Of a stretch of 64,000 nucleotides of DNA, positions 28,991 through 42,764 are shown one piece after another; within the stretch, counting starts at the first letter, position 1; each line of letters begins with the position of its first letter. A program made the position numbers and the translations under genes. Under the pieces are notes generated by a model. That model worked only from the letters and a program-made list of their open reading frames with translations. It made no database searches and was not told the origin of the DNA. This DNA is from Acidobacteriota bacterium (GTDB taxonomy: Bacteria > Acidobacteriota > UBA6911). The DNA lies in the NCBI GenBank assembly GCA_037444305.1, contig JBBIMP010000023.1:2798-66797 (forward strand). Direction: 5' to 3'.

Positions 28991-29743
28991 ATGCCGGTAC
29001 GGAACATCATTCACATCGACGAGGAAAAGTGCGACGGCTGCGGATTGTGCGTCCCCTCCTGCGCGGAAGGCGCCATCCAGATCGTCAACGGCAAGGCAAA
29101 ACTCGTGAACGAGGTGTATTGCGACGGCCTGGGCGCCTGCCTCGGCGAGTGCCCGCAGGATGCCATCCGCATGGAGCAGAGGCGGGCGCCGGAGTTCGAT
29201 CCGCACGCGGTCGAGGCGCATCTCGCCGCGCTGTCGGCCAAACAGGCGCCGGCTCCTCCGAAACCGCTGTTTTCATCGCCTCATCCCGCCGGCTGCCCCG
29301 GTTCGATGTCGCAGGTGTTGCAGCCCACGGCAAACCCTTGCGCGGCCCCGGCGGCGACGGCGCAGCCGCCCTCGAGGCTCGGCAACTGGCCGCTGCAGTT
29401 GCACCTGGTGCCGGTGCAGGCCCCGTTCTATGAGAATGCGGATCTGCTCATCGCGGCCGACTGCGCCCCGTTCGCCTACGCGGGTTTCCACGACGAGTTC
29501 ATCAAGGGAAAGACGGTGATGATCGGCTGCCCGAAGCTGGATGACGCCGGCGCCTACGTGGAAAAGCTGACGCAGATTTTCGCCGGCAACAGCATAAGAT
29601 CGGTCGAGATTGCCTTCATGGAAGTGCCCTGCTGTTTCGGGCTGGTCCGGCTGGTGCAGGAGGCAGTCGCCGGTTCGGGGAAGAGCATCCCGGTGAATCT
29701 GGCCAAGCTCGGCATCCGCGGCGGCATCGCGCAGCGCGGGTAG
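28991..29743 (+). CDS. 4Fe-4S dicluster-domain protein with a Cys-containing C-terminal domain of unknown function
   Basis: CDGCGLCVPSC and CDGLGACLGECP cluster motifs. The RBS AAAGGAG precedes the ATG at 28991, inside ORF 28952..29743. Confidence 0.65.
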   Translation: MPVRNIIHIDEEKCDGCGLCVPSCAEGAIQIVNGKAKLVNEVYCDGLGACLGECPQDAIRMEQRRAPEFDPHAVEAHLAALSAKQAPAPPKPLFSSPHPAGCPGSMSQVLQPTANPCAAPAATAQPPSRLGNWPLQLHLVPVQAPFYENADLLIAADCAPFAYAGFHDEFIKGKTVMIGCPKLDDAGAYVEKLTQIFAGNSIRSVEIAFMEVPCCFGLVRLVQEAVAGSGKSIPVNLAKLGIRGGIAQRG

Positions 29744-29854
29744 TCGCTTTTCCTTGCGTCCATTCCGTTCATGCGCACCCGGAATTCTCTGCGGGTGTAT
29801 TGAATGGGCCCAAAGTTTGTCTCGGCACATGCCACGATAACCGCGCGGATGAGA

Positions 29855-31894
29855 TCACTGCCTGCGGGCGAACGAATCCTGCGGCAGGCGGAGGCTCTCG
29901 AGCGTCAGCGTCGCGATATCCACCACCCGGATCCGCTCATCCAGATCGCGCAGTTTGACCGAATCCTCCAGCATCTGCTTGCAGTAGGCACACGAGGTGA
30001 CAATCGTGTCCGCCCCCTGTGCCTGCGCCTGGTCCACCCTGAGGTTGTTGATCCTCTCCCCGGCCTTCAGGTCCATCCAGAAATGTCCGCCGCCGCCGCC
30101 GCAGCACAGGCTCCGGGACCGGGCGTTCTTCATCTCCGCCACGTTCACGCCGGGAATGGCCCGGAGCACCTCCCTCGGGCTGTCGTAGATCTTCTGAAAG
30201 CGCCCCAGGTAGCACGGATCGTGATACACCGCCTTCTGCGCCGGCAGACCGACCGGCCGCAGGTGATCGCTCCAGAGCATCTCGTGCAGGTACTCCGTGT
30301 GGTGCACCACGCGGTAGTTTCCGCCGAATTGCGGGTATTCATGCGCCAGGACGTTGAAACAGTGCGGGCAGGCGGTCAGGAGCACCTGGAAACGGCGGCG
30401 GTTGAGCAGTTCGATCTGGCTCCTGGCCACTTCCTGAAACAGCGACTCGTCCCCCAGCAGCCGCGCAGGATCCCCGCAGCATCGCTCGTCCGCCCCGAGT
30501 ACGCCGAAGCGGATCCCGGTGGCCTGCAGCAGGCGGCAGAGGTCCTGGGCAATCTGCTGCTTCGTGGGATCGAACGTGGTGCAGCAGCCGATCCACAGCA
30601 GCACATCGATCGACTCCCCCTCGCCGATGACCGGGATCCCCATTTTTTCGATCCACGCCATGCGCTCCCCTTGCGGCCCGAAGGGATTGCCGAGCTGGCC
30701 GAGCATCTTCAGCATGCGGGCGGCATCGACCGGAACCGAGCCTCCCATCATGGTCTGGTGCCGGCGCAGGTCGACGACCGTGTCGAGGTGCTCGACCCGC
30801 GCCGGACAGACCTCCTGGCAGGCGCCGCAGGTGCGACAGTACCAGATCAGGTCGCCGTCGATGGCGCCGCCCACGACCTGACGGGGCGCGCCGGCGCCAT
30901 TCCCGTTCCCCCTTCCGGCTTCGCTGCGCACGAAGGCCTTCAGCTCGGAGATCAGCGCGCGCGGCGAGAGCGGCTGCCTCGCCTGCCGCGAAGGGCAGAC
31001 GTCGTCGCAGCGGCCGCACTCGACGCACCCGTCGAAGCCCAGCCTTTCCCGCCAGGTGAAGTCGGCTGCGGTGGCGATGCCGATCTGCAGCGCCGCTTCG
31101 TCGATGTCCTCCGCCGCCATAAGCGCGGCTACATCCGGCCGCGCGAGGCTGCCCCAGGCCTCGGTCTTCTGCAGTGCCACGTTGGCCGGGATCAGCACCA
31201 TGTGCAGCAGCTTGGTGTAGGGGATCAAGGCGATGAAGCCGAGCGCCATGACGCAGTGGGTCCACCAGACAAAGGCGTGAAGCGCGCGCCCGGCGTCTGC
31301 CCCCAAACCTGAAAACAAAAGCGAAAAGGCAGAGCCCACCGGGGACCACGCTGCCCACGGATCGCCAGCCACCCTGATGCGGAGCCCTTCGACCAGGAAT
31401 CCGCTCAGGAGAATCCCCGCGAGCAGCGCCAGCACCAGGTGATCCGCCGCGCGCGTGGGTAGCGTCGCCGGCCGGGCGATCGTGCGGCGGTAGAGGGCGA
31501 TGCCGATCCCCACCAGCGCCAGCAATCCCGCGATATCGGCCGCGAGCGAAAACACCAGGTAAAGGGTGCCCCGGAAGAGCGACGTGCCCAGGTCCATGTC
31601 CAACATCACCAGCAGCGTCGTCAGGAACATCACCGCAAAGGCATAGAAGATGAGACCGTGAAACAGCGCCGGCAGGCGCTCGCGCCCGACTCCCCGCTGC
31701 AGCAGAATCTCCTTGAGCATTGCCATGAGGCGCGCGCCGGGAGCCGACGTGCGATCTACGGGACGGCCGATCTGCCACTGCCTGTATCTCCGCCGGATCC
31801 CGAGGCCGAACACCACCGCGGTCGCGCCCAGCAGCGCGTACATGATCCAGATGAAGCTGACGTTCCAGCCGAGTTCTCGATGGGCTTCCACCAT
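29855..31894 (-). CDS. Fused NarI-like dihaem cytochrome b membrane domain plus HdrD-like Fe-S/CCG-domain oxidoreductase (DsrMK/HdrED-type)
   Basis: An N-terminal ~300 aa with five or more TM helices and conserved His residues. Then CVECGRCDDVCP and CRTCGACQEVCP (two 4Fe-4S sites). Then two CCG modules (WIGCCTTFDP ... CPHCFN and CCGGGGGHFW ... CAYCKQ). I take the ATG at ~31894 inside ORF 29855..31975. Confidence 0.7.
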   Translation of the reverse strand: MVEAHRELGWNVSFIWIMYALLGATAVVFGLGIRRRYRQWQIGRPVDRTSAPGARLMAMLKEILLQRGVGRERLPALFHGLIFYAFAVMFLTTLLVMLDMDLGTSLFRGTLYLVFSLAADIAGLLALVGIGIALYRRTIARPATLPTRAADHLVLALLAGILLSGFLVEGLRIRVAGDPWAAWSPVGSAFSLLFSGLGADAGRALHAFVWWTHCVMALGFIALIPYTKLLHMVLIPANVALQKTEAWGSLARPDVAALMAAEDIDEAALQIGIATAADFTWRERLGFDGCVECGRCDDVCPSRQARQPLSPRALISELKAFVRSEAGRGNGNGAGAPRQVVGGAIDGDLIWYCRTCGACQEVCPARVEHLDTVVDLRRHQTMMGGSVPVDAARMLKMLGQLGNPFGPQGERMAWIEKMGIPVIGEGESIDVLLWIGCCTTFDPTKQQIAQDLCRLLQATGIRFGVLGADERCCGDPARLLGDESLFQEVARSQIELLNRRRFQVLLTACPHCFNVLAHEYPQFGGNYRVVHHTEYLHEMLWSDHLRPVGLPAQKAVYHDPCYLGRFQKIYDSPREVLRAIPGVNVAEMKNARSRSLCCGGGGGHFWMDLKAGERINNLRVDQAQAQGADTIVTSCAYCKQMLEDSVKLRDLDERIRVVDIATLTLESLRLPQDSFARRQ

Positions 31895-31898
31895 GGGA

Positions 31899-32393
31899 TT
31901 ACACTCCTGTCGAATGCCGTGCGGGCAGAGCGGCGGCCGGCAGCACGACCTGGGGCAACGGCTCGGCAAACACACTCACCGGCGCATCGGCCGGCACAGT
32001 CACCTCCCGGCCGTGCCCGACGCCGGAAGGCGTGCGCCGGTAGTGGCTGCGCACCTTCTGCGAGACAACATCCCAGAGTTCCGTCGCCGCCACCAGCTTT
32101 GCTCCGCGCAGGTCCAGAAGCGCCAACAGCGGCCGCAGCGCTGCCATGGACCTCGACAGGCAGCCGCATCGGTCGACCAGGAACGAGCTCCAGGGCCCCT
32201 CGAACCGCAGGGCCGCTCGCAGCCCCGTGCGGTCCATCAACGAACACTCCCGCGCCTCGTCCTCAAACCAGGCGATGATCTCGATTCCCTGCTGCCGGGC
32301 GTATTCCTCGATCCGGCGCCGCTGGTCGGCGCAGCACACCTCGCCGGATCCGGTGCAAGACGATATCGGGCTCACATATGCAATGGCCTTCAT
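31899..32393 (-). CDS. Small Cys-rich protein with a resolvase-N-terminal-like (flavodoxin-like) fold; paralog A1
   Basis: MKAIAYV ... VCCADQ ... LVDRCGCLSRS ... AATELWD. About 35-40% identical to the upstream paralog. Internal ATG at 32393 inside ORF 31899..32408. Confidence 0.5.
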   Translation of the reverse strand: MKAIAYVSPISSCTGSGEVCCADQRRRIEEYARQQGIEIIAWFEDEARECSLMDRTGLRAALRFEGPWSSFLVDRCGCLSRSMAALRPLLALLDLRGAKLVAATELWDVVSQKVRSHYRRTPSGVGHGREVTVPADAPVSVFAEPLPQVVLPAAALPARHSTGV

Positions 32394-32447
32394 GCCTCCT
32401 CCCTCCACGATGGTCAGGGGCGCGTTCCATCCGCGCCCCCGGCGGTT

Positions 32448-32927
32448 TCACAGGCCGGTCGGCTGCCGTACCAGAGCGGCGAAGTTGAGGCGGGCGGGCC
32501 GCTTCATTCCGATCCGATCCCGCACGGGCACGATCTGCGTGATCACGCAGGTCGGCGGCCGCAGCGCACCTTTGTGGAAGTGCCGCACCTGCTGCGAGAG
32601 GCAGTCCCACAGCTCGGTGGCCGACTGCAGCGCGACATTCTTTTCCTGCAACGCCTCCAGCAGCGGCCTCACCTCCGACAGGGACCTGCTGAAGCACCAG
32701 ATACGCTCCACCAGGATGAGGTCGTAGGAATCCGGGTGCGCCAGCATCGCCTTGACACCTGGACGCTCCACCACCGGCCCGTGGCAACCGTCATCTTCAA
32801 ACCGCGCCACGATCTCTATGCCGTGTGTCTTGGCGTACAGCTCAATCTGCTCGCGCTGCTCCTCGCAACAGATTTCGATATCGGTGTTGGGGATTCGAAT
32901 GCAGTTCACATAGGTGATGGCTTTCAT
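32448..32927 (-). CDS. Small Cys-rich protein with a resolvase-N-terminal-like (flavodoxin-like) fold; paralog A2
   Basis: MKAITYV ... ICCEEQ ... LVERIWCFSRS ... SATELWD. RBS AAGGAG 7 nt before the ATG at 32927 (inside ORF 32448..32972). Confidence 0.5.
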   Translation of the reverse strand: MKAITYVNCIRIPNTDIEICCEEQREQIELYAKTHGIEIVARFEDDGCHGPVVERPGVKAMLAHPDSYDLILVERIWCFSRSLSEVRPLLEALQEKNVALQSATELWDCLSQQVRHFHKGALRPPTCVITQIVPVRDRIGMKRPARLNFAALVRQPTGL

Positions 32928-32967
32928 CTTCTGTCTCCTTTTAGGGCTCGGTCCCCTCGCCTGCAAT

Positions 32968-32983
32968 AGCACGCTCCGTGCCA
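32968..32983 (-). promoter_or_regulatory. Candidate sigma-54 (-24/-12) promoter: TGGCACGGAGCGTGCT
   Basis: On the minus strand, the GG and GC elements have exactly the consensus spacing. It lies ~40 nt upstream of the A2 ATG and immediately downstream of a GAFTGA-type bEBP gene. Confidence 0.45.
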
Positions 32984-33312
32984 GGCCCCGGGCCGCAAGC
33001 TATCACTATGTTTTCAAATGGTTTATGACCGATCGATCCGCGGACAGGCCGTTGCGTCCCATGGCGTGAGTGTAAGAAAACCTTGCGGCGAGCCGGACAA
33101 AAGGGCCGAACCGAGGACGCAAATCACTATTAATGAATGGTATGCAGGCAGCAGCGGCCCGCTGTAAGGATTTCTTGCATCGTATTCGGCGCTGCGGGAA
33201 TGGCGCGCCAGAAACAAAAGAAATGCAATGATTTGCAGTCCCGGATAGTCCCGCGCAAATAAAACTATCGCCTCTGCGGGATCCGGCAGCAGGATCCCCG
33301 GCGCCTGCACTA

Positions 33313-34677
33313 TCAGTCGAGGCCGTGTTTTTTCAGCTTGCTGTGCAGGCCGACGCGGGAGCAGCCGAGTATTCTCGCGGCGGCGGTGCGGTTGCCGGAG
33401 GTGTGGTCCAGAACCCGGATAATGTGCTCGCGCTCCAGTTCCGAGAGCGTCTTGAACCCATGGGCGCCGGCGGGAAGACGGGAACCGTTCAGCCCGGCAG
33501 TGACCGCCGGGGGGAGCGACCTCCGGGTGAGCGCACGCTTTTTTTCGAGCACAACGGCGGAGGCGATGATGTTCTCCAGTTCCCGGACGTTTCCCGGATA
33601 GTCGTAACGCTCCAGGATCTCGAGCACGTCGTCTTCTATGTATTCGATCCGCCTGTCGTTCCTCCGGCAGTGCCGGTCGAGGAAGAAATAGGCCAGCAGG
33701 TCCACATCCCCCTTCCGCTCCCTGAGCGGCGGGAGGTGGATGGAACTGATGTTGAGCCGGTAATAAAGGTCGAGGCGAAATCCGCCCGCCTCGATCATCG
33801 CCGGCAGGTCCCGGTTGGTAGTGGCGATGACCCTCACGTCCACGCCCCGCCGCTGCGTCGATCCCACGTGAAAGAACTCCCCCTCCTGCAGAACCCGCAG
33901 GAGCTTTGCTTGGTTGACCGCCTCCAGGTCGCCGATCTCGTCCAAGAAGAGCGTGCCGCCATCCGCTTCCTCGAAGAAGCCGGTTTTCTGCCGGTGGGCG
34001 CCCGTGAACGCGCCCCTCTCGTGGCCGAAGAACTCGGAGGCGAACAGGTCGGCCGCGTGCTCCGCCATATTGACCGCAATGAAGGGCCCGGCAGCGCGAG
34101 GACTGGCGCGGTGGATGGCGTGCGCCACCAGCTCCTTTCCGGTTCCGCTCTCCCCCTGGATGAGAACGTTGTTGCCGCTCCGCGCGATCTGCTCCAGCCT
34201 TCCGAGGATGCGAAGCAGGGCCGGATCGCGCGTGACGATTCCGTGGAAGCCGGCCTCGTGTCTCAGCTTTTCCTGGGCAATCTCCCCCCGCAGCCGGGAG
34301 ACCTGGCCGCGGAGACGGCTGTGCTCCAATGCGCGTTCCATGGAGGTCAGGAGCCGGTTTTTGTCCACGGGCTTGCAGATGTAGTCGTAGGCTCCCAGCT
34401 TCATGGCATCGACCGCGAGCGAAACGTCCTCCACCCCGGTAATCACGATCACCCCCAGGTCATGTTTCTCGCGGACGTACCGGAGAATGTCCCGGCCCGT
34501 GACCGTGGGCATATCCATGTCCAGGAGGATCAGGTCGAAATCACCGCCGTCAATCACACTGAAGGCGCGGCTGCTGTCCTGGAGCGTCTCCACTTCGAAG
34601 CGGCCGTCCTGGGCGAAGAACACGAGGAAGTGGTTCAGGACGGCCTCGTTGTCGTCGATGATGAGGATGCGGTTCAC
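33313..34677 (-). CDS. Sigma-54-dependent response regulator (NtrC/AtoC family): REC, AAA+ and Fis-type HTH domains
   Basis: ILIIDDNE ... LLDMDMP (REC), GESGTGKE, GAFTGA, a C-terminal HTH (AAARILGCSRVGLHSKLKK). GTG start at 34677, overlapping the kinase stop (GTGA). Confidence 0.85.
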   Translation of the reverse strand: MNRILIIDDNEAVLNHFLVFFAQDGRFEVETLQDSSRAFSVIDGGDFDLILLDMDMPTVTGRDILRYVREKHDLGVIVITGVEDVSLAVDAMKLGAYDYICKPVDKNRLLTSMERALEHSRLRGQVSRLRGEIAQEKLRHEAGFHGIVTRDPALLRILGRLEQIARSGNNVLIQGESGTGKELVAHAIHRASPRAAGPFIAVNMAEHAADLFASEFFGHERGAFTGAHRQKTGFFEEADGGTLFLDEIGDLEAVNQAKLLRVLQEGEFFHVGSTQRRGVDVRVIATTNRDLPAMIEAGGFRLDLYYRLNISSIHLPPLRERKGDVDLLAYFFLDRHCRRNDRRIEYIEDDVLEILERYDYPGNVRELENIIASAVVLEKKRALTRRSLPPAVTAGLNGSRLPAGAHGFKTLSELEREHIIRVLDHTSGNRTAAARILGCSRVGLHSKLKKHGLD

Positions 34678-36140
34678 GTAGCCCTCCCGCCGATGGGGAA
34701 TATGTAACGAAAGGTCGCGCCCTTGCCCTGCGAGCTGTCCACCTCGATCCGGCCGCCGTGCTGTTGCACGATGCCGTAGGTGATCGACAGGCCCAGCCCT
34801 GTCCCGCCCGCGCGTTGCCGGGTCGTGAAAAACGGATCGAAAAGCCGGGCCTGAGCCGCTTCGTCGATTCCCGGGCCGTTGTCCTTGATGGCCACCCACA
34901 CCTTGGGCGGAAAGGTGACAGCGCGCGTCGTGATCTCGATGGCCGGGTCGGGGGAGCCGGCGAGCGCGTCCGCGGCATTGATCAGCGTGTTCACGATGAC
35001 CTGGCCGATGCGGTTGGCGCTCCCCTTGAAGGTCGGCAGCCGTGGATCCAGGTCTTCGACGACGCGGAAGTGCTTGATGCGGTTGTGCACTAGGCGCCTC
35101 GACGATTCGATCACAGCGTTGAGGTCGACATCGTCCTCCAGCAACCCTTCGTCCCGCCGGGCGAAGATCCTGAGATCGCGGACGATGTCGCGGATGCGCG
35201 TCACGCCGTCGACCATATCGTCCAGCAGCGCCGGGGCGTGCTTGCGGAAGAAAGGATACTTCAGCCGCGCGACCGTCAGCTCCGGGTTGCGCCCGGCCTC
35301 TTCGTCCAGCAGCGGAAGGATGTCGTCGAAGCTCTCGCGCACTATCTGCATGTTGCCGCCGATGAACTGCACCGGGTTGTTGATCTCGTGCGCTATGCCG
35401 GAGACGAGCTGCCCGAGCGAGGCCAGCTTCTCCGACTGGATGAGCTGGCTCTGCTGGTTGAGCAGCTCGTCGTTGGCGCGGCGCAGCTCGTGGGACTTGG
35501 CATCGAGCAGGTCCCAGGCTTCCACCAGCTCCTGCTCGCGCCTGCGCAGGCTGGTGACGATCGAGGTTGTGATCCAGATGGTGACGAACAAGGTGACGAA
35601 AAAGACCAGGGCCACTGTCCCGATGAAGCGGACGTCCTGGTGCCGGGGAACCGGGTGGAGCGCACGCAGGTTCACGTGCGGGAGCACCTCGTGGTACTCC
35701 AGCAGGACAACCCCCATGAACATGCCGAACGCCACCAGGCCGAAGGCGTAGACCTCGGCCCGCGACAGCAGGATGCTGCTGATGATGGCGTGGAAGAGGT
35801 AGAAGAACAGAAGAGGATTTTCGATCCCCCCGGCGAAGTGGATGAGCAGGCTCAGGGCCAGCGTGTCCAGGTAGGTCTGCAGGATGGCCTCGGTTCGATT
35901 GGTGCCGGAACTCCTCCCTCCGCGGGCCTTCTGCCGCCGGTGCCCGAAGAAGAAAACCGTGTTGTAAAGGCCGATCACCGCGGCCACTGTGAGTGTGCCC
36001 GCGCGGGAGAAACTCACCCCCAGGAGATCGTGAGCGAAGAAGATCGAGGCTGCCAAGCCGGCCAGGAAGACCCAGCGGATGTTGACGAACCACCAGAGGC
36101 GGAATTTGAGTTCTTCTTCTCTGAGCGATCGACTCGACAT
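34674..36140 (-). CDS. Sensor histidine kinase with a multi-TM N-terminal sensor domain
   Basis: HisKA (SGIAHEINNP) and HATPase_c (DNGPGID ... GTGLGLSI). The start is at 36140 or at 36176. Confidence 0.8.
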   Translation of the reverse strand: MSSRSLREEELKFRLWWFVNIRWVFLAGLAASIFFAHDLLGVSFSRAGTLTVAAVIGLYNTVFFFGHRRQKARGGRSSGTNRTEAILQTYLDTLALSLLIHFAGGIENPLLFFYLFHAIISSILLSRAEVYAFGLVAFGMFMGVVLLEYHEVLPHVNLRALHPVPRHQDVRFIGTVALVFFVTLFVTIWITTSIVTSLRRREQELVEAWDLLDAKSHELRRANDELLNQQSQLIQSEKLASLGQLVSGIAHEINNPVQFIGGNMQIVRESFDDILPLLDEEAGRNPELTVARLKYPFFRKHAPALLDDMVDGVTRIRDIVRDLRIFARRDEGLLEDDVDLNAVIESSRRLVHNRIKHFRVVEDLDPRLPTFKGSANRIGQVIVNTLINAADALAGSPDPAIEITTRAVTFPPKVWVAIKDNGPGIDEAAQARLFDPFFTTRQRAGGTGLGLSITYGIVQQHGGRIEVDSSQGKGATFRYIFPIGGRAT

Positions 36141-36362
36141 GCAAGCTCCGGACCGGCAGTCCTGCGCTGAGGGCAATGCGCCGCGAAAGCCTGGGAGCCG
36201 AGTCGCGGAGGGAGCGGAAACCCTCCTCTCGGTGCAACCAAGAGAATAGCACAGCTCGATGAAAAGGGCATTTCGAAAGGCGGGGAGATCAGTCCTTCGA
36301 CGGGCTGGAATTGGGCGGTTTCTGCGTCCCGGGAAGGGGTCGCGGAGGCTTTTTCCCTGCCG

Positions 36363-37043
36363 CTAGGCAAGCATCCGCTCCCGGGCCAACCGGCGGCCGG
36401 TTGCGGTATGGAGCTTCTTTTCAATAAGGCTTTCCCGTGCAGGCCGGTCGAGCAAAGATCTGCGCTGCAGCAACTTGAACAGGTTCACCGCATCCCGGAC
36501 GATCCTTCCATCCGCCTCGGCCGAACCGTTCGACTCGCCGCCGCCCGACAGGATATGGCAGACCCGGTCGATCACTTCCCCCTCGGTTCCCAGCTCCAGC
36601 AAAACGGCGCACGCCTCTTCCTCGGATCCCGGTTCCGCAAGGTTCGCCAGCATCGCCGCGGCAATCACCACCTTGGGCTCGCCGCCCTCCTCCGAGTTGA
36701 TCTCTTCGGCCAGCTCGGCAATCTCCAGGCACTGCTGCAGCCGGTCATTCTCGGGTTTTAACGACCTGCGCACGACCGCCAATAGCCGGTCGCGATACAG
36801 CGCGCTCAGATTCTCTCCTTCGAACATCTCGGGCATGCAGGTTTCGGCGTACTTGCAGTACTCCAGGCAGCCCAGGTTGCGCTTGGGATTCAAAAAGCGG
36901 TGGCCGCACCTGCAGGTGCGCTTGGCGTCATCCTTCCAGAATTCGACCGGCTTGCCGCAACTGGGGCACTTGACGTCGTAGATGTCGTCCGGCTTCCAGA
37001 ACATGGTGTTCTGTCCCGGACAGCGGAGATCGTTCTGGCTCAC
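36363..37043 (-). CDS. Cys-rich (zinc-ribbon-like, 8 Cys) N-terminal domain protein with a degenerate HD-like C-terminal region
   Basis: CPSCGKP ... CRCGH ... GCLEYCKYAETC. It is co-oriented with, and ~190 nt upstream of, the kinase gene. Confidence 0.4.
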   Translation of the reverse strand: MSQNDLRCPGQNTMFWKPDDIYDVKCPSCGKPVEFWKDDAKRTCRCGHRFLNPKRNLGCLEYCKYAETCMPEMFEGENLSALYRDRLLAVVRRSLKPENDRLQQCLEIAELAEEINSEEGGEPKVVIAAAMLANLAEPGSEEEACAVLLELGTEGEVIDRVCHILSGGGESNGSAEADGRIVRDAVNLFKLLQRRSLLDRPARESLIEKKLHTATGRRLARERMLA

Positions 37044-37202
37044 GGCATCACCTGATTGAAATTTCTGAACCCATTGTACTCCTGGAGCCGGGCTGAGGGA
37101 TTTGACTTAGGTCAATCCCCAGGAGGCATACGCAATTGACCTCGAAATCTCGATCTTCTATGGTAGGAGGCTGTAATCTCCTTCCTGAGGAGAGAAAAAA
37201 TC

Positions 37203-39059
37203 ATGCCTCTGATTTGGCCGCTGATTCTTGTCATCCTCCAGCTTCCGCTGACCAGAGCAATCCTGGAGGCCGAAGACGCACGAAGCCGCAATATCGAGGT
37301 TTATGCCGAAGCGCTGCAAAGCGATCAAACCGAAGCCCGGAGACTCGCCATCCGGGCGCTCGGGCGCTTGGAACGTCCCGAGCTGGCGCATCACATCATC
37401 CCCTTCCTGGATGCTGCTGAACCGTCGCTTCGCGCGGAGGCGGTCAACTCGCTGGGCCAGATGCGCGCAGATGTGGAATTGCTCTCCACGTTCAAGACAG
37501 AAACGGCGCCGGCGGTAAGGGCGGTCTACTACCGCACGATGGCAAGGCTGCCCAAGGCGGACGAAGTCCTGCTCATCAAGGGATTGGAAGAGGCGGATCC
37601 GGTTGTACGGGAGGGCGCCGCCAAGGGTGTCGAAACGCTTTATCGCCTGAACGCCCGGAAGGGATTGAAGCCCCCGCTCCATTCGCTTCAGGCAATGCGC
37701 AAAGCGTTCCGGGAAAATTCCGATCCTTTGCTGCGCAGGCTCCTGCTGCTGGCGCTCAACTCTGTGGGCGACGCCGATCCCTCAGTCATCGAGGCGGCCT
37801 TCGGTGATTCCGATCCACAGGTCCGCCGACTGGCGGTCATCGCGACAAAGCGATGGCGTGACGATCCATCCCCCATGGTCCGCTACGAAGCGCTGCGCCT
37901 GGCGCCCTCATGCGATCGAGCCGCTGCCGCTTTGGCAGATCCCAGCCCCCACGTCGCGCTGCTGGCCGTAGACCTGCTCGGCAACGGCTGCCCGGCGGAT
38001 ATTCTCGAAAACATCGTCGACCGGTCCAACGATTGGCGCCGCCAGGCAAGGGCGCTGGTCTCGCTCAGCAGGGTCGGTCCGGATTCTGCTGCAGAGCGGC
38101 TGGAAAGGTTCGCGCGGCATGACCGGTGGCAGGTTCGCGCCTATGCGGCTGCGGCGGCAAAGGTGTTGAAAAACGAACAGATACTCAAGAGCCTCCTCGA
38201 AGACAAACACGCGGGAGTGGCGACCGCTGCGCTTGAAAAACCCGAGGATGCCGTGCGGATGCTGCGCAATCCTGACTACGGCCTCATCATGCGCGCAGCC
38301 GATTGTCTCAAGGGCTGGGCGGAAGGCCGGTCCGCCGTGCCGGAACTGATGGCGGCTCTGGAGCGGATCACAGCCGAAAGGAGCGATACTTCGCGCGATC
38401 CTCGCCGCGCGATTCTCGAGCGCCTGGCGGAATTCGGCGGCCGGGAGATCATCGATGGAATCAAGCCATTGCTGAACGATTTCGACCCGGTCGTTGCGCA
38501 GCTGGCAGCGAAGATCATTTCTGAAAAAGGGGGCGAGCCGGTCTCTGCGCAGCCAACGCATCTGTCCACAAGACCGGTGCCGCCTCAGAGCCTGATCGAC
38601 AGCCTCCGCGGGGCTGCGGTTAGAATTCGCATGGCTGAAGCCGGACCTTTCACCATGGAGCTGCTCATGGATGTGGCGCCGGTGCTGGCCTCGTCCTTCG
38701 TTCAGCTGGCCGAGAGCGGCTATTATACGAACCTGACCTTTCACCGGATCGTCCCCAATTTCGTCATCCAGGGGGGCAGCCCCGGCGCCAACGAGTATGT
38801 CGGCACCGCCGGTTACTTCCGCGACGAACTGGGGCTGGTTTCGCACACACGCGGCACGGTCGGCCTTTCCACGCGCGGTAGAGACACGGGGGACGGGCAG
38901 ATATTCATCAATCTGGTGGACAATTTCAGGCTGGACCACAACTACACGGTCTTCGCCCGCGTCGTGGAAGGGATGGAAAACGTGGATCGCATCCAGGAAG
39001 GGGACACGATCGAAGCCATCGATGTCATCCGCCGCAACAATGCGCCGGGAAAACACTGA
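37203..39059 (+). CDS. Secreted HEAT-repeat (PBS-lyase-like) protein fused to a C-terminal cyclophilin-type peptidyl-prolyl isomerase
   Basis: A signal peptide and repeated DPxVR/A HEAT-like units. The C-terminus has FHRIVPNFVIQGGSP ... the cyclophilin fold. Confidence 0.75.
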   Translation: MPLIWPLILVILQLPLTRAILEAEDARSRNIEVYAEALQSDQTEARRLAIRALGRLERPELAHHIIPFLDAAEPSLRAEAVNSLGQMRADVELLSTFKTETAPAVRAVYYRTMARLPKADEVLLIKGLEEADPVVREGAAKGVETLYRLNARKGLKPPLHSLQAMRKAFRENSDPLLRRLLLLALNSVGDADPSVIEAAFGDSDPQVRRLAVIATKRWRDDPSPMVRYEALRLAPSCDRAAAALADPSPHVALLAVDLLGNGCPADILENIVDRSNDWRRQARALVSLSRVGPDSAAERLERFARHDRWQVRAYAAAAAKVLKNEQILKSLLEDKHAGVATAALEKPEDAVRMLRNPDYGLIMRAADCLKGWAEGRSAVPELMAALERITAERSDTSRDPRRAILERLAEFGGREIIDGIKPLLNDFDPVVAQLAAKIISEKGGEPVSAQPTHLSTRPVPPQSLIDSLRGAAVRIRMAEAGPFTMELLMDVAPVLASSFVQLAESGYYTNLTFHRIVPNFVIQGGSPGANEYVGTAGYFRDELGLVSHTRGTVGLSTRGRDTGDGQIFINLVDNFRLDHNYTVFARVVEGMENVDRIQEGDTIEAIDVIRRNNAPGKH

Positions 39060-39355
39060 TCCAAGCGATCCGAAAAGCAACATCTTCCGCCGGCAAACGC
39101 ACCCATTCCGGCCCTTTTCTTGTTCCGGCCCGCTCCCCGCAGTTTGGATGGCGTTGCTCGGTACTGATACACAGCACCATGCCAATAAACCATGCCGTGC
39201 GCTATCGTCCGTGACAGCGGCTCATTATCGACTCCGGTTGGCAAACAGTGGCGAACTTGCGGGTCGGCTGACGATCTTTGCGTTACAGTTCTTCCCGAAA
39301 GCCAGGTTGCTTCGATCTCCCCTTTCTGGTACATTATGGAAACTAAAATTCCATA

Positions 39356-40507
39356 ATGAGTCCAATAATAGAAATTACTCCCCGGTTTTTTGAGATCCCT
39401 GATCAGAGCTTCTTCCTCTTCGGCCCCAGGGGCACCGGCAAATCGACCTGGCTCCGGCACGAGTTGCCCGATGCCCTTTTTGTTGACCTTCTCCAGCCTG
39501 AAACGTACCGCGAGATGGCTGCGCGTCCTGAAAGGCTGCGAGAATTGGTTCTCGGATCACCGGAGAAACGCACGGTTGTGGTGGACGAAGTTCAACGCAT
39601 CCCGGAACTTCTGCATGTAGTGCACGAAATCCTCGAGTCCGCCCAACGAAGGCGCTTCGTGCTTACGGGATCGAGTGCGCGCAAGCTGCGCCGGGGCGGA
39701 GTGGACCTGCTTGCCGGACGCGCGCTGATGCGAAGTCTCCACCCGTTCATGGCGGCCGAACTGGCCGACTTCCGGCTGGAAGCGGCGCTGCATCGCGGCC
39801 TGGTGCCGCTAATACTCGCGGCGCCCCAAGCTGAAGATGCGCTCCAAGCCTATGCCTCCCTCTATCTCCAACAGGAGGTGCAGAGCGAAGGGTTGACCCG
39901 AAACGTCGGCAATTTTGCTCGTTTTCTGGAGGCGCTAAGCTTCTCGCACGCGAACATTTTGAACATCGCCAACGTCGCCCGCGAATGCCAGATCGAGAGG
40001 AAAACCGTCGCCGGCTACGTGGAGATTCTGGAAGACCTGCTGCTTTCCTTCCGCCTCCCGGTCTTCACCCGCCGTGCACAGCGCGCAACCGTTTCGCACC
40101 CCAAGTTCTACTTCTTTGACGCCGGAGTGTATCGTTCCCTGCGGCCTTGCGGGCCGCTCGACAGAGTCGAAGAAATCGAGGGCGCAGCTCTCGAAGGGCT
40201 CGTGGCCCAGCATCTTCAGGCATGGCGGGCCTATTCCCGAAAAGGGTCGGAGTTGTTTTTCTGGCGCACCCGCTCCGGGGTGGAAGTGGACTTCGTGGTG
40301 TACGGACCCAATGATTTCCGCGCGATCGAGGTCAAAAATTCTGCCCGGGTTCGTCCCGAGGACCTCCGTGCTCTGCGCGCCTTTTCTTCCGACTATCCGG
40401 CCTGTGAGGCGTTGCTTCTCTACCGCGGCGCCGACAGGCTTCGCGTGGATGGGATCTGGTGCCTCCCGGTGGAGGAGTTCCTGCTTCAATTGCGGCCGTC
40501 ACGATGA
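39356..40507 (+). CDS. AAA-superfamily ATPase with a DUF4143-like C-terminus (COG1373-type)
   Basis: FGPRGTGKST Walker A, VVVDEVQRIPEL Walker B, and a C-terminal DUF4143-like region. Confidence 0.75.
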   Translation: MSPIIEITPRFFEIPDQSFFLFGPRGTGKSTWLRHELPDALFVDLLQPETYREMAARPERLRELVLGSPEKRTVVVDEVQRIPELLHVVHEILESAQRRRFVLTGSSARKLRRGGVDLLAGRALMRSLHPFMAAELADFRLEAALHRGLVPLILAAPQAEDALQAYASLYLQQEVQSEGLTRNVGNFARFLEALSFSHANILNIANVARECQIERKTVAGYVEILEDLLLSFRLPVFTRRAQRATVSHPKFYFFDAGVYRSLRPCGPLDRVEEIEGAALEGLVAQHLQAWRAYSRKGSELFFWRTRSGVEVDFVVYGPNDFRAIEVKNSARVRPEDLRALRAFSSDYPACEALLLYRGADRLRVDGIWCLPVEEFLLQLRPSR

Positions 40508-40513: not shown

Positions 40514-40579
40514 CCACGATCGAACGGCGCGATCGTGGAAAGTGGCACTCGTTGCCGCAGGACCGGGATATCCCGGTCC
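40514..40579. other. Two consecutive GC-rich palindromes/hairpins just after the ATPase stop
   Basis: CCACGATCG-aacggcg-CGATCGTGG at 40514-40538. The perfect 20-bp palindrome GGACCGGGATATCCCGGTCC at 40560-40579. Neither is followed by a U-tract. Confidence 0.35.
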
Positions 40580-40744
40580 CAAAGCGTCAATAGGTGCAGA
40601 GCACGCTCGCTCACACCGGTAAACCAAAATCGAGTCAGAGCGTGGCCCTCTGAGATATACTCCTGCTACAAGAGAGACCGGCCGTCCCGAGATCTTCAGC
40701 TAAGTACAAGTCACGATCTGCACTTGTCCAGCCCCCGCGCCACT

Positions 40745-40865
40745 TTATATTTCACCTTTTTATCACCTTTCGCTTGATTTTCTGAAACCAAAGAGTAAAA
40801 TGGTGAACATAAGGTGAATTTCCGCCGATGTCGGGATAATAGGCACTGTGAAATACCTGTGATAT
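40745..40865 (+). promoter_or_regulatory. AT-rich leader of nrdJ carrying three pairs of pentamer repeats with exact 11-bp phasing
   Basis: TCACC at 40752 and 40763. GGTGA at 40802 and 40813. TGTGA at 40847 and 40858. The region is much lower in GC than its flanks. Confidence 0.4.
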
Positions 40866-40988
40866 CTCTTTGGAAAATTCAGTATAAGTCACTTAAATAA
40901 ACACAGATAGAGACATATCCAGGTTCGCTTCAAGCCTGTGAATTTTTCCGTGGCCCGACTTCGGGGAATGGCCAAATGAGGAGACGCC

Positions 40989-42764
40989 ATGACGAAAGCC
41001 GGCAAGGTAGGAGAACGCGGAGATCTCAGGCCGTTTTTTCGCGCTTCCAATGGTTCCAAGGTGCTGGAAACCAGGTATCTGAAAAAGGATCCCCATGGGA
41101 AGGTGATCGAATCCGCGGAAGAAATGTTCAGGCGCGTGGCGGAGGATATCGCCCAAGTGGATCTGCAATATGAGGGCGGAGACATGTGGAAGACCTCAGC
41201 CGACGAATTCTATGCCGTGATGAGCCGTCTGGAATTCCTGCCCAATTCACCCACGCTGATGAACGCCGGCCGGGATCTGCAGCAGCTTTCGGCCTGTTTC
41301 GTCCTGCCGGTGGACGATTCTCTGGATTCCATATTCGAAGCCGTGAAAAACACTGCCCTCATTCACAAGAGCGGCGGGGGCACGGGCTTTTCCTTCTCGC
41401 GGGTACGCCCGCGCGGGGACAGGGTCCGATCAACCCAGGGCGTCGCCAGCGGTCCTGTTTCATTCATGCAGGTCTTCGACGCGGCCACCGATGCCGTGAA
41501 GCAGGGGGGCACCCGCAGGGGCGCCAACATGGGAGTTCTGCGGGTCGATCACCCCGACATCCTGGAGTTCATCGACGCCAAGTCCCACGGAGAAGGCCTG
41601 GCCAATTTCAACATCTCCGTCGCCGTTACCGACGCGTTCATGGAAGACGCCATGACCGGCACGGATTACACGCTTCTGCACCCGCGCACCGGAGCGCCGG
41701 CCGGCCACCTGAATGCCAAGGAGGTATTCCGGCGCCTCTGCCTCAGGGCCTGGGAATGCGGCGAGCCCGGCATGCTTTTCCTGGATGCGATCAACCGGTC
41801 CAATCCCACGCCGGCTCTCGGAAACCTCGAGTGCACAAACCCTTGCGGCGAGCAACCTCTCCTTCCATACGAGTCGTGCAACCTCGGATCCATCAACCTC
41901 TCCAGGATAACCGCGTCCGGCAGGGGAAGAACAGTTGTGGACTATCCGCGTCTCGCGCGCACGGTGAGGACCGCCGTCAGGTTCCTGGACAATGTGATCG
42001 ATGCCAATCACTATCCACTTCCCCAGATCGCGGCGATCACGAAGGCCAACCGGAAAATCGGGCTCGGCGTAATGGGCTGGGCCGACATGCTGATCCAGCT
42101 CGGCATACCATATGACTCCGATATTGCCCTCGCGCTTGCGGGGAAGGTCATGGGCTTTATCCGGCGGGTGGGGCATCAGGCGTCGTGCGAAATCGCAATC
42201 CGGCGCGGGCCTTTTCCCAACTTTGTCCGCTGCCCGGACAGACAAGCTCGCGGCGGGACGCCGCGCCGCAATGCAACGATCACCACGATTGCGCCCGCAG
42301 GCACAATTTCGATCATCGCCGGATGCTCCAGCGGAATCGAACCTCTGTTTGGACTGAGCTATTCCCGCAACCATGTTCTCGGCGGCGTGGAGCTGCCGGA
42401 AATCCATCCTCTGCTTCTGCGGGAGCTGGCTGCGAGGGGACTCGATGCGCCAGAGATACTGGACCACATGACTCGAACAGGTTCGCTTGCGGGCCTTGAT
42501 TTCCTCCCTGAGGACCTCCGCCGGCGATACGTCACCGCGCTGGAAATCGCGCCGGATAGACACGTGCGGATGCAGGCTGCATTTCAGAAACACTCAGACA
42601 ACGCTGTCTCCAAAACCGTCAACCTGCCGCATGAGTCGAAGCCCGAGGATGTGGAGACCGTCTTTCGCCTGGCCGGCGAGCTGGGATGCAAAGGGATCAC
42701 GGTTTATCGCGACCGCTGCCGCGACACTCAGGTCCTGAACCTGGGATGCGCCACCTGTGCCTGA
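40989..42764 (+). CDS. nrdJ: Class II (adenosylcobalamin-dependent) ribonucleotide reductase
   Basis: NSPTLMNAG, CFVLPV, the thiyl-radical loop NPCGEQPL, ESCNLGSINLS, and the C-terminal CATCA. RBS GAGGAG precedes the start. Confidence 0.85.
   Translation: MTKAGKVGERGDLRPFFRASNGSKVLETRYLKKDPHGKVIESAEEMFRRVAEDIAQVDLQYEGGDMWKTSADEFYAVMSRLEFLPNSPTLMNAGRDLQQLSACFVLPVDDSLDSIFEAVKNTALIHKSGGGTGFSFSRVRPRGDRVRSTQGVASGPVSFMQVFDAATDAVKQGGTRRGANMGVLRVDHPDILEFIDAKSHGEGLANFNISVAVTDAFMEDAMTGTDYTLLHPRTGAPAGHLNAKEVFRRLCLRAWECGEPGMLFLDAINRSNPTPALGNLECTNPCGEQPLLPYESCNLGSINLSRITASGRGRTVVDYPRLARTVRTAVRFLDNVIDANHYPLPQIAAITKANRKIGLGVMGWADMLIQLGIPYDSDIALALAGKVMGFIRRVGHQASCEIAIRRGPFPNFVRCPDRQARGGTPRRNATITTIAPAGTISIIAGCSSGIEPLFGLSYSRNHVLGGVELPEIHPLLLRELAARGLDAPEILDHMTRTGSLAGLDFLPEDLRRRYVTALEIAPDRHVRMQAAFQKHSDNAVSKTVNLPHESKPEDVETVFRLAGELGCKGITVYRDRCRDTQVLNLGCATCA

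What the first reader, a model, noticed from the sequence alone, without database searches (positions are those of the whole stretch)
40740..40870. AT-rich nrdJ leader with three pairs of pentamer repeats at exact 11-bp (one helical turn) phasing
In a ~250-bp island of roughly 40% GC within ~67% GC DNA there are three phased pairs: TCACC-N6-TCACC (40752/40763), GGTGA-N6-GGTGA (40802/40813), and TGTGA-N6-TGTGA (40847/40858). GGTGA and TGTGA are near-identical, and TCACC is the reverse complement of GGTGA.

So two head-to-head pairs plus a third pair lie 130-240 bp upstream of the nrdJ ATG. This geometry fits a regulator that binds direct repeats on one DNA face. It does not match the 16-bp palindromic NrdR box that I tested for, and I could not find a convincing cobalamin-riboswitch core.
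Basis: seen in the sequence. Interest (0 to 1): 0.5.

Follow-up and report, generated by a model that had tools for sequence, protein, structure and literature searches.

The report
Conserved repeat operator at nrdJ promoter
The phased short repeats are real, are conserved in every related genome found, and mark protein-binding sites wrapped around the promoter of the cell's B12-dependent ribonucleotide reductase gene, in an uncultured Acidobacteriota lineage that lacks the usual NrdR control sites.

Summary
**Observation: confirmed.**
- All three pentamer pairs sit at the stated coordinates.
- Every short direct repeat in 40700-40988 has a spacing of exactly 11 bp. Three such blocks at that spacing arose in 3 of 5000 shuffles.

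**Conservation.**
- Thirteen orthologous nrdJ upstream regions (NrdJ only 64-72% identical) keep the same layout, while the DNA between the sites is unconserved.
- The layout is:
  - tandem site A;
  - a sigma-70-type promoter (-35 TTGnnn, 16 bp, -10 TAnAAT);
  - tandem site B over -10/+1;
  - tandem site C;

**Two unit classes.**
- A/B units read AAA[G/A]GTGAAT and never have T before GTG.
- C/D units read cTGTGNAAAW and always have T. This is the relaxed DnaA-box consensus.

**Excluded or unsupported.**
- No riboswitch or conserved RNA fold.
- No canonical NrdR box, against 51 of 73 nrdJ loci in other phyla.
- No CRP/FNR palindrome.
- No sign of a replication origin.

**Mechanism.**
- This is a DNA operator array.
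- The binder is unidentified. I favour DnaA (9-mer + 2 bp double boxes, as at E. coli nrdA and nrdD), at about 0.4.
- The rivals are an OmpR/PhoB-type response regulator, an unknown dedicated repressor and an alpha-type LexA.

**Verdict.** A new variant of a known kind, of moderate interest.

The parts
40750..40770 (-). Site A: two class-1 units 11 bp apart. The top strand reads TTTCACCTTTTTATCACCTTT, so GGTGAA is on the minus strand. The site ends 3 bp upstream of the -35 hexamer.
   Evidence: Sequence. TTCACC.TTT.A.CACCTT is invariant in alignment A1. The site is present with 11-bp spacing in all 13 orthologs.
40774..40779 (+). -35 hexamer TTGATT of the predicted sigma-70-type promoter P1.
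   Evidence: Promoter scan. TTG is invariant. A promoter-like match lies at the same position in 11 of 11 orthologs scanned. Its function is inferred, not shown.
40796..40801 (+). -10 hexamer TAAAAT of P1, with a 16-bp spacer. The predicted transcription start is near 40808.
   Evidence: The transcription start is inferred from the position of the -10 only.
40799..40821 (+). Site B: two class-1 units. The 9-mers are GGTGAACAT (40802-10) and GGTGAATTT (40813-21). The site overlaps the -10 and the predicted +1, and is inverted relative to site A.
   Evidence: GTGAA...AAGGTGAAT is invariant. The distance from CAC of the outer A unit to GTG of unit B1 is 50-51 bp in all orthologs.
40846..40866 (+). 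Site C: two class-2 units, CTGTGAAATA and CCTGTGATATC, 11 bp apart, in the DNA of the predicted leader.
   Evidence: TGTG.A.....TGTG..A is invariant. The B-to-C distance is 44-45 bp in 8 orthologs, 41 bp in 1 and 25 bp in 4.
40935..40946 (+). Site D: a single class-2 unit (CCTGTGAATTTT). Most orthologs read cCTGTGGAAAA here. It lies 89-92 bp downstream of C in every ortholog that reaches it.
40808..40988 (+). Predicted 5' untranslated leader of about 180 nt, AT-rich.
   Evidence: Inferred from P1. RNAalifold finds no consensus structure and Rfam finds no family.
40989..42764 (+). nrdJ: adenosylcobalamin-dependent (class II) ribonucleotide reductase, 591 aa. It is a short form without the C-terminal TSCPD region.
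   Evidence: Pfam, NCBIfam TIGR02504 and homologues.

Best explanation
The repeats are a multi-site DNA operator built around the nrdJ promoter.

**Anatomy.**
- Two tandem pairs of 11-bp-phased units sit in inverted orientation on either side of a sigma-70-type promoter.
- Site A abuts the -35. Site B covers the -10 and the transcription start.
- A tandem pair (C) and a single unit (D) lie in the DNA of the leader, at conserved distances.

**Mechanism.** A protein that binds head-to-tail, one subunit per 11 bp on one face of the helix, would block RNA polymerase when it fills B (and A). It would thereby set the level of ribonucleotide reductase.

**Preferred binder: the replication initiator DnaA.**
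- The C/D units are the relaxed DnaA box TGTGNAWAA.
- All pairs have the '9-mer + 2 bp' geometry of double DnaA boxes.
- The A/B units are DnaA-like 9-mers with the first T replaced by G or A. They could be lower-affinity, DnaA-ATP-dependent sites.
- nrdJ would then be repressed when DnaA-ATP is high, as at E. coli nrdAB. In this lineage that control would stand where NrdR boxes stand elsewhere.

**What is shown and what is inferred.**
- Shown: the sites, their conservation, their geometry, and the absence of the alternatives tested.
- Inferred: promoter use, repression by occlusion, and the identity of the protein.
For: **That it is a DNA operator.**
- Conservation falls in islands exactly at the units and at the -35 and -10, with unconserved DNA between them.
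- Unit spacing is 11 bp in all A, B and C sites of 13 orthologs.
- The promoter lies at the same place in 11 of 11 orthologs scanned.
- The spacers of A and B are not complementary and show no covariation. RNAalifold finds no pairs.

**For DnaA: the sequence.**
- The class-2 matrix (38 units) reads T38 G38 T38 G38 [G18/A12/C8] A37 A33 A29 W35. This is TGTGNAWAA, variable at exactly the N position.
- L088 carries a perfect TGTGGATAA, and most orthologs read TGTGGAAAA at D.

**For DnaA: precedents in E. coli.**
[quoted passage not shown] It has ChIP peaks with such double boxes at both nrdA and nrdD (PMC11317965).
- The low-affinity sites of oriC form arrays 2 bp apart, in two oppositely oriented sets. 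They are filled from high-affinity anchor sites (PMC6070618).
- In E. coli oriC, TGTGAATGA is followed after 2 bp by GGTGATCCT.
- The E. coli nrdAB promoter has non-discriminating and DnaA-ATP-specific boxes. High DnaA-ATP represses it by excluding RNA polymerase (PMC8203912).

**Canonical NrdR control is absent here.**
- No lineage region has an NrdR box, against 51 of 73 in other phyla.
- The neighbouring clade, locus L213, has canonical boxes.
Against: - No binding data exist, and neither dnaA nor oriC of this lineage could be reached for comparison.
- In the window itself the units are 1-3 mismatches from TGTGNAWAA. The 64 kb hold no perfect box.
- Class-1 units never carry the T that E. 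coli DnaA requires at position 1 (0 of 52).
- Class-1 units fix position 5 as A, and they conserve an A-tract on the 5' side.
- The 3' tail of the outer A unit is not conserved.
- Taken together, these class-1 features fit a second protein at A/B at least as well.
- The same geometry and a TTCAC/GTGAA core are typical of PhoP-type response regulators.
- The metagenome scan found the double unit only at nrdJ promoters, not at other loci of the lineage. That scan was cut off at 120 rows.
Confidence: 0.4

Rival explanations
1. An OmpR/PhoB-family response regulator of the PhoP/PhoB/ResD/MtrA type binds as head-to-tail dimers to each pair. It activates from A and represses from B, and so links RNR expression to phosphate, redox or cell-cycle signals.
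For: - The strict 11-bp period, and a 6-7 bp core followed by an A/T-rich spacer of about 4 bp, are the hallmark of this family.
- M. tuberculosis PhoP binds TCACAGC-N4-TCACAGC as a tandem dimer (PMC4832192).
- The S. coelicolor PHO box has 11-nt units with the core GTTCACC (PMC2691820).
- The optimal C. glutamicum PhoR site is CCTGTGAAaatCCTGTGAA (PMC3353115). Site C in the window reads aCTGTGAAataCCTGTGAt.
- Class-1 units read TTCACC+TTTT. The T-tract is conserved even after the last unit, as expected for wing contacts.
Against: - Site D is a strongly conserved single unit with no partner 11 bp away. Half-sites bind this family very weakly (PMC4832192).
- Two non-overlapping unit classes would need two regulators.
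- Position 5 of class 2 is freely variable, which is unusual inside a recognition-helix core.
- No DNA-binding response regulator is syntenic with the locus. Only a receiver-only protein and a kinase lie 5 kb away, and only in the window.
Confidence: 0.2
2. A dedicated repressor that has not been described (neither NrdR, DnaA nor LexA) binds the four class-1 units as a two-fold symmetric pair of tandem dimers that clamps the promoter. The class-2 units are bound by something else, most simply DnaA.
For: - Class 1 and class 2 do not overlap at the base before GTG (G/A against T). They also differ at position 5 and in which flank is A-rich.
- The class-1 sites are nearly invariant over 20 bp across NrdJ divergence down to 64%. 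Such conservation is typical of dedicated operators.
- A and B are symmetric about the promoter spacer.
- In the DNA sampled, the motif was found only at nrdJ promoters.
- The operator co-occurs with a distinct short NrdJ clade and with the absence of NrdR boxes.
Against: - No candidate gene is linked to nrdJ in any of the loci.
- Class 1 and class 2 share 7 of 9 positions. That is a large coincidence for unrelated proteins.
- 'Found only at nrdJ' rests on very little genome sequence and on a truncated scan.
Confidence: 0.25
3. The class-1 pairs are SOS boxes of the direct-repeat type (GTTC-N7-GTTC) used by Alphaproteobacteria and by Acidobacterium capsulatum. LexA would repress nrdJ until DNA damage occurs.
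For: - LexA is the other protein known to bind direct repeats 11 bp apart, and its box is reported for an acidobacterium (PMC4951493 and the Mazon 2006 title in its reference list).
- The reverse complement of B reads ATTC-N7-ATTC.
- The pattern scan pulled out L121. There, TTCACC-N5-TTCACC and GTGAAC-N5-GTGAAA, in the same inverted layout, lie directly upstream of a genuine lexA gene.
- Site B lies over -10/+1, which is the usual place for LexA.
Against: - The defining G of GTTC (C of GAAC) is present in only 1 of 52 class-1 units.
- The bases that are invariant here (CAC/GTG) fall in the unspecified N7 of the LexA box.
- The class-2 units have no TTC at all.
- No lexA, recA, uvrA or imuAB promoters of the lineage were recovered by the scan.
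Confidence: 0.1
4. The features are not protein-recognition sites. Alternatives are non-canonical NrdR boxes, an RNA element in the leader (riboswitch or attenuator), or phased A-tracts that merely curve the DNA.
For: - NrdR half-sites also contain CAC/GTG about 11 bp apart, and box centres are an integral number of helical turns apart (PMC12051234). A and B are about 5 turns apart.
- The class-1 arrays carry A4-5 tracts every 11 bp.
- In the window only, a hairpin plus a T-run lies at 40920-40948.
Against: - The conserved NrdR positions (C4, A6, A8, T9, T11, G13, with C-N8-G) are not met. The best 16-mer has 6 mismatches, and the units are direct rather than inverted (PMC13584703).
- No Rfam hit and no consensus fold.
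- Site A lies upstream of the promoter, so it cannot act as RNA.
- Curvature alone does not explain the invariant GGTGAA and TGTG cores.
Confidence: 0.05

Closest known systems
Double DnaA boxes at the E. coli RNR promoters (nrdA, nrdD) and the DnaA-ATP switch at nrdAB
   Same: - Same target function (ribonucleotide reductase).
- Pairs of 9-mers in the same orientation, 2-3 bp apart (here always 2).
- Sites both upstream of the -35 and over the core promoter.
- Two affinity or specificity classes of box.
- The C/D units fit TTWTNCACA.

Sources: PMC11317965, PMC8203912.
   Different: - Seven units rather than three.
- A and B are inverted around the promoter.
- The class-1 units carry G/A instead of the canonical first T.
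- The gene is class II nrdJ in Acidobacteriota.
- NrdR boxes, which coexist with DnaA boxes in E. coli, are absent here.
- Binding has not been tested.
Low-affinity DnaA arrays of E. coli oriC (R5M-tau2-I1-I2 and C3-C2-I3-C1)
   Same: - 11-bp phasing (9 + 2).
- Two oppositely oriented arrays.
- Degenerate 9-mers that include a GGTGAT-type unit next to a TGTGAAT-type unit.
- Nearby higher-affinity anchor boxes (PMC6070618).
   Different: - This is not an origin. GC skew does not switch, the genes converge rather than diverge, and the element travels with nrdJ.
- Each array has two units, not four.
NrdR boxes
   Same: - Same regulated gene family.
- Operator overlapping the promoter.
- Four recognition units in total, with overall two-fold symmetry.
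- Centres an integral number of helical turns apart.
   Different: - The units are direct repeats, not 16-bp palindromes.
- The conserved C4/A6/A8/T9/T11/G13 pattern is absent.
- Centres are about 50 bp apart rather than 31-32 or 41-42 bp.
PHO boxes of PhoP/PhoR/PhoB-type response regulators (S. coelicolor, M. tuberculosis, C. glutamicum)
   Same: - 11-bp direct repeat units.
- A TTCAC(C/A) core.
- An A/T-rich 3-4 bp spacer.
- Multiples of two units.
- Operators placed either beside the -35 or over the start site.
   Different: - There is no link to phosphate genes.
- Site D is a conserved single unit.
- There are two distinct unit classes.
- The regulator is unknown.
Alphaproteobacterial / Acidobacterium capsulatum LexA box GTTC-N7-GTTC
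   Same: - A direct repeat with an 11-bp period.
- A shared TTC.
- Reported in the same phylum.
- The similar inverted double arrangement seen at the lexA gene of locus L121.
   Different: - The defining G is missing in 51 of 52 units.
- The conserved bases extend into what is N7 in the LexA box.

Membership tests
NrdR binding site | A 16-bp partially palindromic box with conserved C4, A6, A8, T9, T11 and G13 (C-N8-G) | tested here: not met
   Scan with the consensus ACACWATATATWGTGT.
- No box with 5 or fewer mismatches in 9 of 10 lineage regions; the tenth has one stray 5-mismatch hit.
- The best match in the window has 6 mismatches.
- Control: 51 of 73 nrdJ upstream regions from other phyla have a box with 4 or fewer mismatches.
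- The feature definition is from PMC13584703.
NrdR binding site | Two boxes separated by 15-16 bp (or 25-26 bp) | tested here: not met
   No box pairs were found. The centres of A and B are about 50 bp apart. The spacing rule is from PMC12051234.
NrdR binding site | An nrdR gene in the genome | not testable with these tools
   - An NrdR probe finds nrdR next to nrdJ in L004, L008, L013, L021 and L045.
- It finds nothing in the window or in the lineage loci.
- The rest of the genome is not available.
DnaA box / double DnaA box | A 9-mer matching TTWTNCACA (TGTGNAWAA) | tested here: inconclusive
   - The class-2 matrix equals the consensus, including the free fifth position.
- The box is perfect at D in most orthologs and at C1 in L088.
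- The window's own C1, C2 and D have 1, 3 and 2 mismatches, and the window has no perfect box.
- Class-1 units always miss the first T.
DnaA box / double DnaA box | Two boxes in the same orientation, 2-3 bp apart | tested here: met
   Start-to-start distance is 11 bp (9 + 2) in A, B and C of all 13 orthologs. The criterion is from PMC11317965.
DnaA box / double DnaA box | The same boxes at oriC or the dnaA promoter of the same organism, and binding by DnaA | not testable with these tools
   No dnaA or oriC was found in the window or in any locus held. Neither could be retrieved with the searches still available.
OmpR/PhoB-family response-regulator site | Direct repeats of a 6-8 bp core with a 10-11 bp period and an A/T-rich spacer | tested here: met
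   The family geometry is from PMC4832192, PMC2691820 and PMC3353115.
OmpR/PhoB-family response-regulator site | A cognate regulator and a regulon carrying the same units | not testable with these tools
   - No DNA-binding response regulator lies in the window.
- No other instance was found in the roughly 150 kb of lineage DNA held.
Alpha-type LexA box | GTTC tetranucleotide in both halves, 7 bp apart | tested here: not met
   The period and the TTC are present. The G (C of GAAC) is present in only 1 of 52 class-1 units.
CRP/FNR site | The palindrome TGTGA-N6-TCACA or TTGAT-N4-ATCAA | tested here: not met
   - The best matches have 3 mismatches, and the best CRP-like match is simply the direct repeat itself.
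- The Crp/Fnr gene at 28203-28907 is not syntenic with nrdJ in other genomes.
Cobalamin or other riboswitch | A match to an Rfam model, or a conserved secondary structure | tested here: not met
   - No hit at E-value up to 10 apart from noise.
- No hit above the gathering threshold in the whole window.
- RNAalifold predicts 0 pairs on 9 leaders.
Chromosomal replication origin | A GC-skew switch, divergent gene orientation and a box cluster next to an unwinding element | tested here: not met
   - Skew is uniformly negative across the window.
- The genes converge downstream of nrdJ.
- The element stays with nrdJ when the upstream neighbours change.

The most novel reading that the evidence does not exclude
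This Acidobacteriota lineage has replaced NrdR with a ribonucleotide-reductase-dedicated repressor that has not been described. The repressor would bind as two tandem dimers to a four-unit, two-fold symmetric operator (AAAGGTGAA units every 11 bp) that clamps the nrdJ promoter. DnaA boxes downstream would add replication-cycle input. The operator co-evolved with a C-terminally shortened NrdJ.
Probability: 0.25. Interest if true: 0.65.

Novelty: new variant of a known kind. Interest (0 to 1): 0.45.

Why it matters
**The open question.** Ribonucleotide reductase is the only de novo source of DNA precursors, and its control is usually attributed to NrdR. About a quarter of bacterial genomes lack NrdR (PMC13584703). 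How those bacteria regulate the enzyme is poorly known.

**What this locus offers.**
- It gives a sharply defined, deeply conserved operator of a different design, in an uncultured Acidobacteriota group.
- It comes with concrete, testable candidates for the binder.
- If DnaA is the binder, the DnaA-to-RNR link known from E. coli extends to a distant phylum and to class II RNR. It would also offer a natural example of two box classes that are kept apart by selection.
- If DnaA is not the binder, the locus points to a new RNR regulator.

**Practical use.** The unit matrices can be used at once to scan Acidobacteriota MAGs for the regulon.

Tried and rejected
1. **Riboswitch or sRNA.** An Rfam search of the region at E-value up to 10, and of the whole window at gathering thresholds, gave nothing. 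RNAalifold on 9 leaders gave no pairs.
2. **A-B RNA hairpin.** The spacers are not complementary. B1 changes G to A without a compensating change in A.
3. **NrdR, CRP and FNR consensus scans.** All were negative, with positive controls in other phyla.
4. **Replication origin.** There is no skew switch.
5. **A regulator encoded next to nrdJ.** The neighbours are yggS, DUF167, tmk and holB upstream (HEAT-PPIase upstream in the window and L090), and DUF2007, a 281-aa protein, rsmE and dnaJ downstream. None of them is a DNA-binding regulator.
   - The Crp/Fnr gene, the histidine kinase and the receiver in the window belong to an insertion that is absent elsewhere.
6. **Regulon discovery by a metagenome pattern scan**.
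   - Of 120 hits, 5 are further nrdJ promoters of the lineage.
   - The rest are mostly low-GC chance matches, ribosome-binding-site-like AAAGGTGA sequences or coding sequence.
7. **A second promoter between C and D.** None is conserved.
8. **The genome-contig scan** gave only relatives of 61% identity or less from other phyla. These were useful as controls only.
9. **Cluster names for taxonomy.** None was held. The phylum was instead taken from named DnaJ relatives.
10. **Reaching dnaA, oriC, lexA or pst loci of the lineage.** This was not possible with the look-ups allowed.
Full report
**1. What is in the window.**
- They extend to TCACCTTT (twice), GGTGAA (twice) and CTGTGA (twice).
- Within 40700-40988, every direct repeat of 5 nt or more at short range has a spacing of exactly 11 bp.
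- Three separate blocks at that spacing occurred in 3 of 5000 dinucleotide-preserving shuffles. Three blocks at any one spacing from 4 to 30 occurred in 156 of 5000.
- Pairs 1 and 2 form a 20-nt inverted repeat, 80% complementary, with 28 nt between the arms.
- The AT-rich island has 37% GC, against 62.9% for the window.
- The downstream gene (40989-42764) is a class II, B12-dependent ribonucleotide reductase. It scores 683 bits against TIGR02504 and has the Pfam barrel and N-terminal domains.
- The window is contig CAZIEJ010000011.1 of MAG GCA_964538715.1.
- DnaJ relatives of 80-83% identity that carry a name are named Acidobacteriota.

**2. Conservation.**
- NrdJ has a clade of short (about 583-616 aa) relatives at 64-72% identity.
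- I fetched their contigs by protein look-up, which is unbiased with respect to the motif: L083-L090, L211 and L212.
- I fetched more by a DNA pattern scan of metagenomes: L117, L126, L169, L178 and L204.
- Downstream synteny (281-aa protein, rsmE, dnaJ) shows that these are orthologous loci.
- All 13 distinct regions keep the same elements in the same order:
  - site A (TTCACCTTTTtATCACCTTT);
  - a TTGnnn hexamer;
  - after 16 bp, a TAnAAT hexamer;
  - site B, abutting that hexamer (aGTGAAtAAAAGGTGAAT);
  - site C (TGTGnAAAAnnTGTGnAAA);
- The sequence between these islands is not conserved.
- Unit spacing is 11 bp in every A, B and C site.
- Distances between sites are also held, although the intervening DNA is free to vary:
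  - A to B is 50-51 bp;
  - B to C is 44-45 bp in eight orthologs, 41 bp in one and 25 bp in four (about two helical turns shorter);
  - C to D is 89-92 bp in all twelve that reach D.

**3. DNA or RNA.**
- Site A lies upstream of the only conserved promoter-like element. That element is found at the same place in 11 of 11 orthologs scanned.
- The spacers inside A and B are not complementary. B1 varies between G and A without a matching change in A.
- RNAalifold finds no consensus pair in nine leaders, and Rfam finds nothing.
- The elements are therefore DNA sites.
- With the -10 at 40796-40801, B covers the -10/+1 region. C and D lie in the DNA of a leader of about 180 nt. This last point is inferred.

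**4. Two unit classes.** I aligned all units on GTG.
- The 52 units of A and B read AAAA[G42/A10]GTG-A-A-T-A-W-A-A.
- The 38 units of C and D read ccT38-GTG-[G18/A12/C8]-A-A-A-W.
- The base before GTG never overlaps between the classes.
- The next base after GTG is fixed as A (or T) in class 1 and free in class 2.
- The A-tract is conserved on the 5' side in class 1, even for the terminal unit next to the -35. It is on the 3' side in class 2.

**5. What it is not.**
- *NrdR boxes.* A consensus scan finds none with 5 or fewer mismatches in the lineage. It finds boxes in 51 of 73 nrdJ upstream regions from other phyla.
  - The next NrdJ clade (L213, 815 aa, with a TSCPD domain) has classical boxes over its promoter, as does L049.
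  - The defining positions and spacing are taken from PMC13584703 and PMC12051234.
  - An NrdR probe detects nrdR beside nrdJ in five other-phylum loci, but not in the window or the lineage loci.
- *CRP/FNR.* There are no palindromes.
- *Origin of replication.* There is no skew switch, and the gene orientation converges.
- *An adjacent regulator.* None was found.

**6. Who binds.**
- Class 2 is the relaxed DnaA box TGTGNAWAA, variable exactly at N. L088 has a perfect TGTGGATAA, and most orthologs read TGTGGAAAA at D.
- The pair geometry is '9-mer + 2 bp'. This is the double DnaA box that E. coli DnaA prefers in vivo. E. coli has such boxes and ChIP peaks at both nrdA and nrdD (PMC11317965).
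- The low-affinity sites of oriC form 2-bp-spaced arrays in two opposite orientations. They are fed from high-affinity anchors (PMC6070618).
- In E. coli oriC, the box TGTGAATGA is followed after 2 bp by GGTGATCCT (verified). A GGTGA-type unit phased with a TGTGA-type unit therefore has a precedent.
- At E. coli nrdAB, non-discriminating and DnaA-ATP-specific boxes coexist. High DnaA-ATP represses by excluding RNA polymerase (PMC8203912).
- The simplest single-protein reading follows. C and D are anchors. A and B are tuned, ATP-form-dependent sites over the promoter.
- I put this reading at about 0.4. Against it:
  - the window's own units are 1-3 mismatches from the consensus, and the window has no perfect box;
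  - class 1 never has the canonical T;
  - the outer A unit has an unconserved tail.

**7. Rivals.**
- *OmpR/PhoB-type regulators* bind 11-bp direct repeats with TTCAC-type cores.
  - Examples are M. tuberculosis PhoP (TCACAGC-N4-TCACAGC), the S. coelicolor PHO box (GTTCACC in 11-nt units) and C. glutamicum PhoR (CCTGTGAAaatCCTGTGAA).
  - Site C of the window is almost the C. glutamicum motif.
  - However, the single site D, the free fifth position and the two classes fit this family less well.
- *A dedicated unknown repressor at A/B* explains the class separation and the extreme conservation. It has no candidate gene.
- *Alpha-type LexA* (GTTC-N7-GTTC, reported for Acidobacterium capsulatum) shares the period.
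  - One scan hit, L121, has the same inverted double layout in front of a true lexA gene.
  - But the defining G is present in only 1 of 52 units here.

**8. Comparison and novelty.**
- In function this is an operator that overlaps an RNR promoter, as NrdR boxes and the E. coli DnaA boxes do.
- In form it is a seven-unit array of direct repeats with fixed long-range spacing. I found no description of it.
- It co-occurs with a shortened NrdJ and with the absence of NrdR boxes.
- I class it as a new variant of a known kind, of moderate interest.

**9. Limits.**
- Promoter use, repression and the binder are all inferred.
They were used only as probes.
- The NrdR probe was validated by its hits. 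The oriC fragment was validated by exact matches in 5400 genomes.
- The naming of the GGTGATCCT site as tau2 is from memory.

Noticed in passing
window 40989-42764; proteins P0002-P0063: NrdJ here and in its clade is short (583-616 aa). It lacks the C-terminal region (TSCPD domain, PF12637) found in the next-closest relatives (about 720-815 aa). It aligns only to positions 14-577 of the 759-position NCBIfam profile NF006417. No separate C-terminal gene follows, because the next gene is on the opposite strand. The short form co-occurs with the new operator.
   Followed up: partly
window 28203-40507, compared with L083, L086, L087, L211 and L212: In most orthologs, yggS and DUF167 directly precede nrdJ. 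In the window, about 12 kb is inserted between DUF167 and nrdJ. The insert holds a Crp/Fnr regulator, an Fe-S protein, a CCG-domain protein, a receiver plus histidine kinase, a HEAT-cyclophilin fusion and a DUF4143 AAA ATPase. L090 shares only the Fe-S protein and the HEAT-cyclophilin genes. The operator stays attached to nrdJ throughout.
   Followed up: partly
window 40560-40579: A perfect 20-bp palindrome, GGACCGGGATATCCCGGTCC, lies just downstream of the DUF4143 gene, without a T-run. A second hairpin (CCACGATCG / CGATCGTGG) lies at 40514-40538. This GC-rich half of the intergenic region is specific to the window.
   Followed up: no
window 40920-40948: A terminator-like hairpin plus T-run (CAGGTTCGCTTCAAGCCTG TGAATTTTTC) lies inside the predicted leader and overlaps site D. 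It is present only in the window, not in the orthologs. It could be an attenuator or could be chance.
   Followed up: partly
window 40703-40714 and 40881-40892: A 12-nt direct repeat, AGTACAAGTCAC / AGTATAAGTCAC (11 of 12 identical), 178 bp apart, brackets sites A to C. A loosely similar TAAGT motif recurs after site C in some orthologs.
   Followed up: no
L169, about 10 nt upstream of site D: In this ortholog, site D is one arm of a perfect inverted repeat, GTTTTCCAC-tgct-GTGGAAAAC. This is either two convergent DnaA-like boxes or an RNA hairpin. In the window a weaker counterpart exists: GGAAAATTCA at 40872-40881 against TGAATTTTTCC at 40939-40949.
   Followed up: no
L121 9798-9850 (metagenome contig Ga0206794_1235, 38% GC): TTCACC-N5-TTCACC, then 14 nt, then GTGAAC-N5-GTGAAA, lie immediately upstream of a genuine lexA gene (Peptidase_S24 plus the LexA DNA-binding domain). 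This looks like an alpha-type (GTTC-N7-GTTC) SOS operator laid out as an inverted pair of tandem repeats.
   Followed up: partly
L155 and L168 (metagenome contigs Ga0126342 and Ga0126343): Long arrays of 11-bp tandem repeats (TTCACCTTTTT three or more times, then AAAAAGGTGAC five or more times) lie in an inverted arrangement. Their origin and function are unknown.
   Followed up: no
L004, L008, L013, L021, L045: In several other phyla, nrdR lies directly next to nrdJ. L008 shows two tandem nrdR-like matches (2520-2936 and 3224-3640).
   Followed up: no
window 36363-37043 (minus strand): A 226-aa protein with no Pfam family has only a faint N-terminal zinc-ribbon-like match (NCBIfam RNA polymerase subunit P, E = 3e-4). 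It is transcribed divergently from the HEAT-cyclophilin gene. It is not syntenic with nrdJ elsewhere.
   Followed up: no
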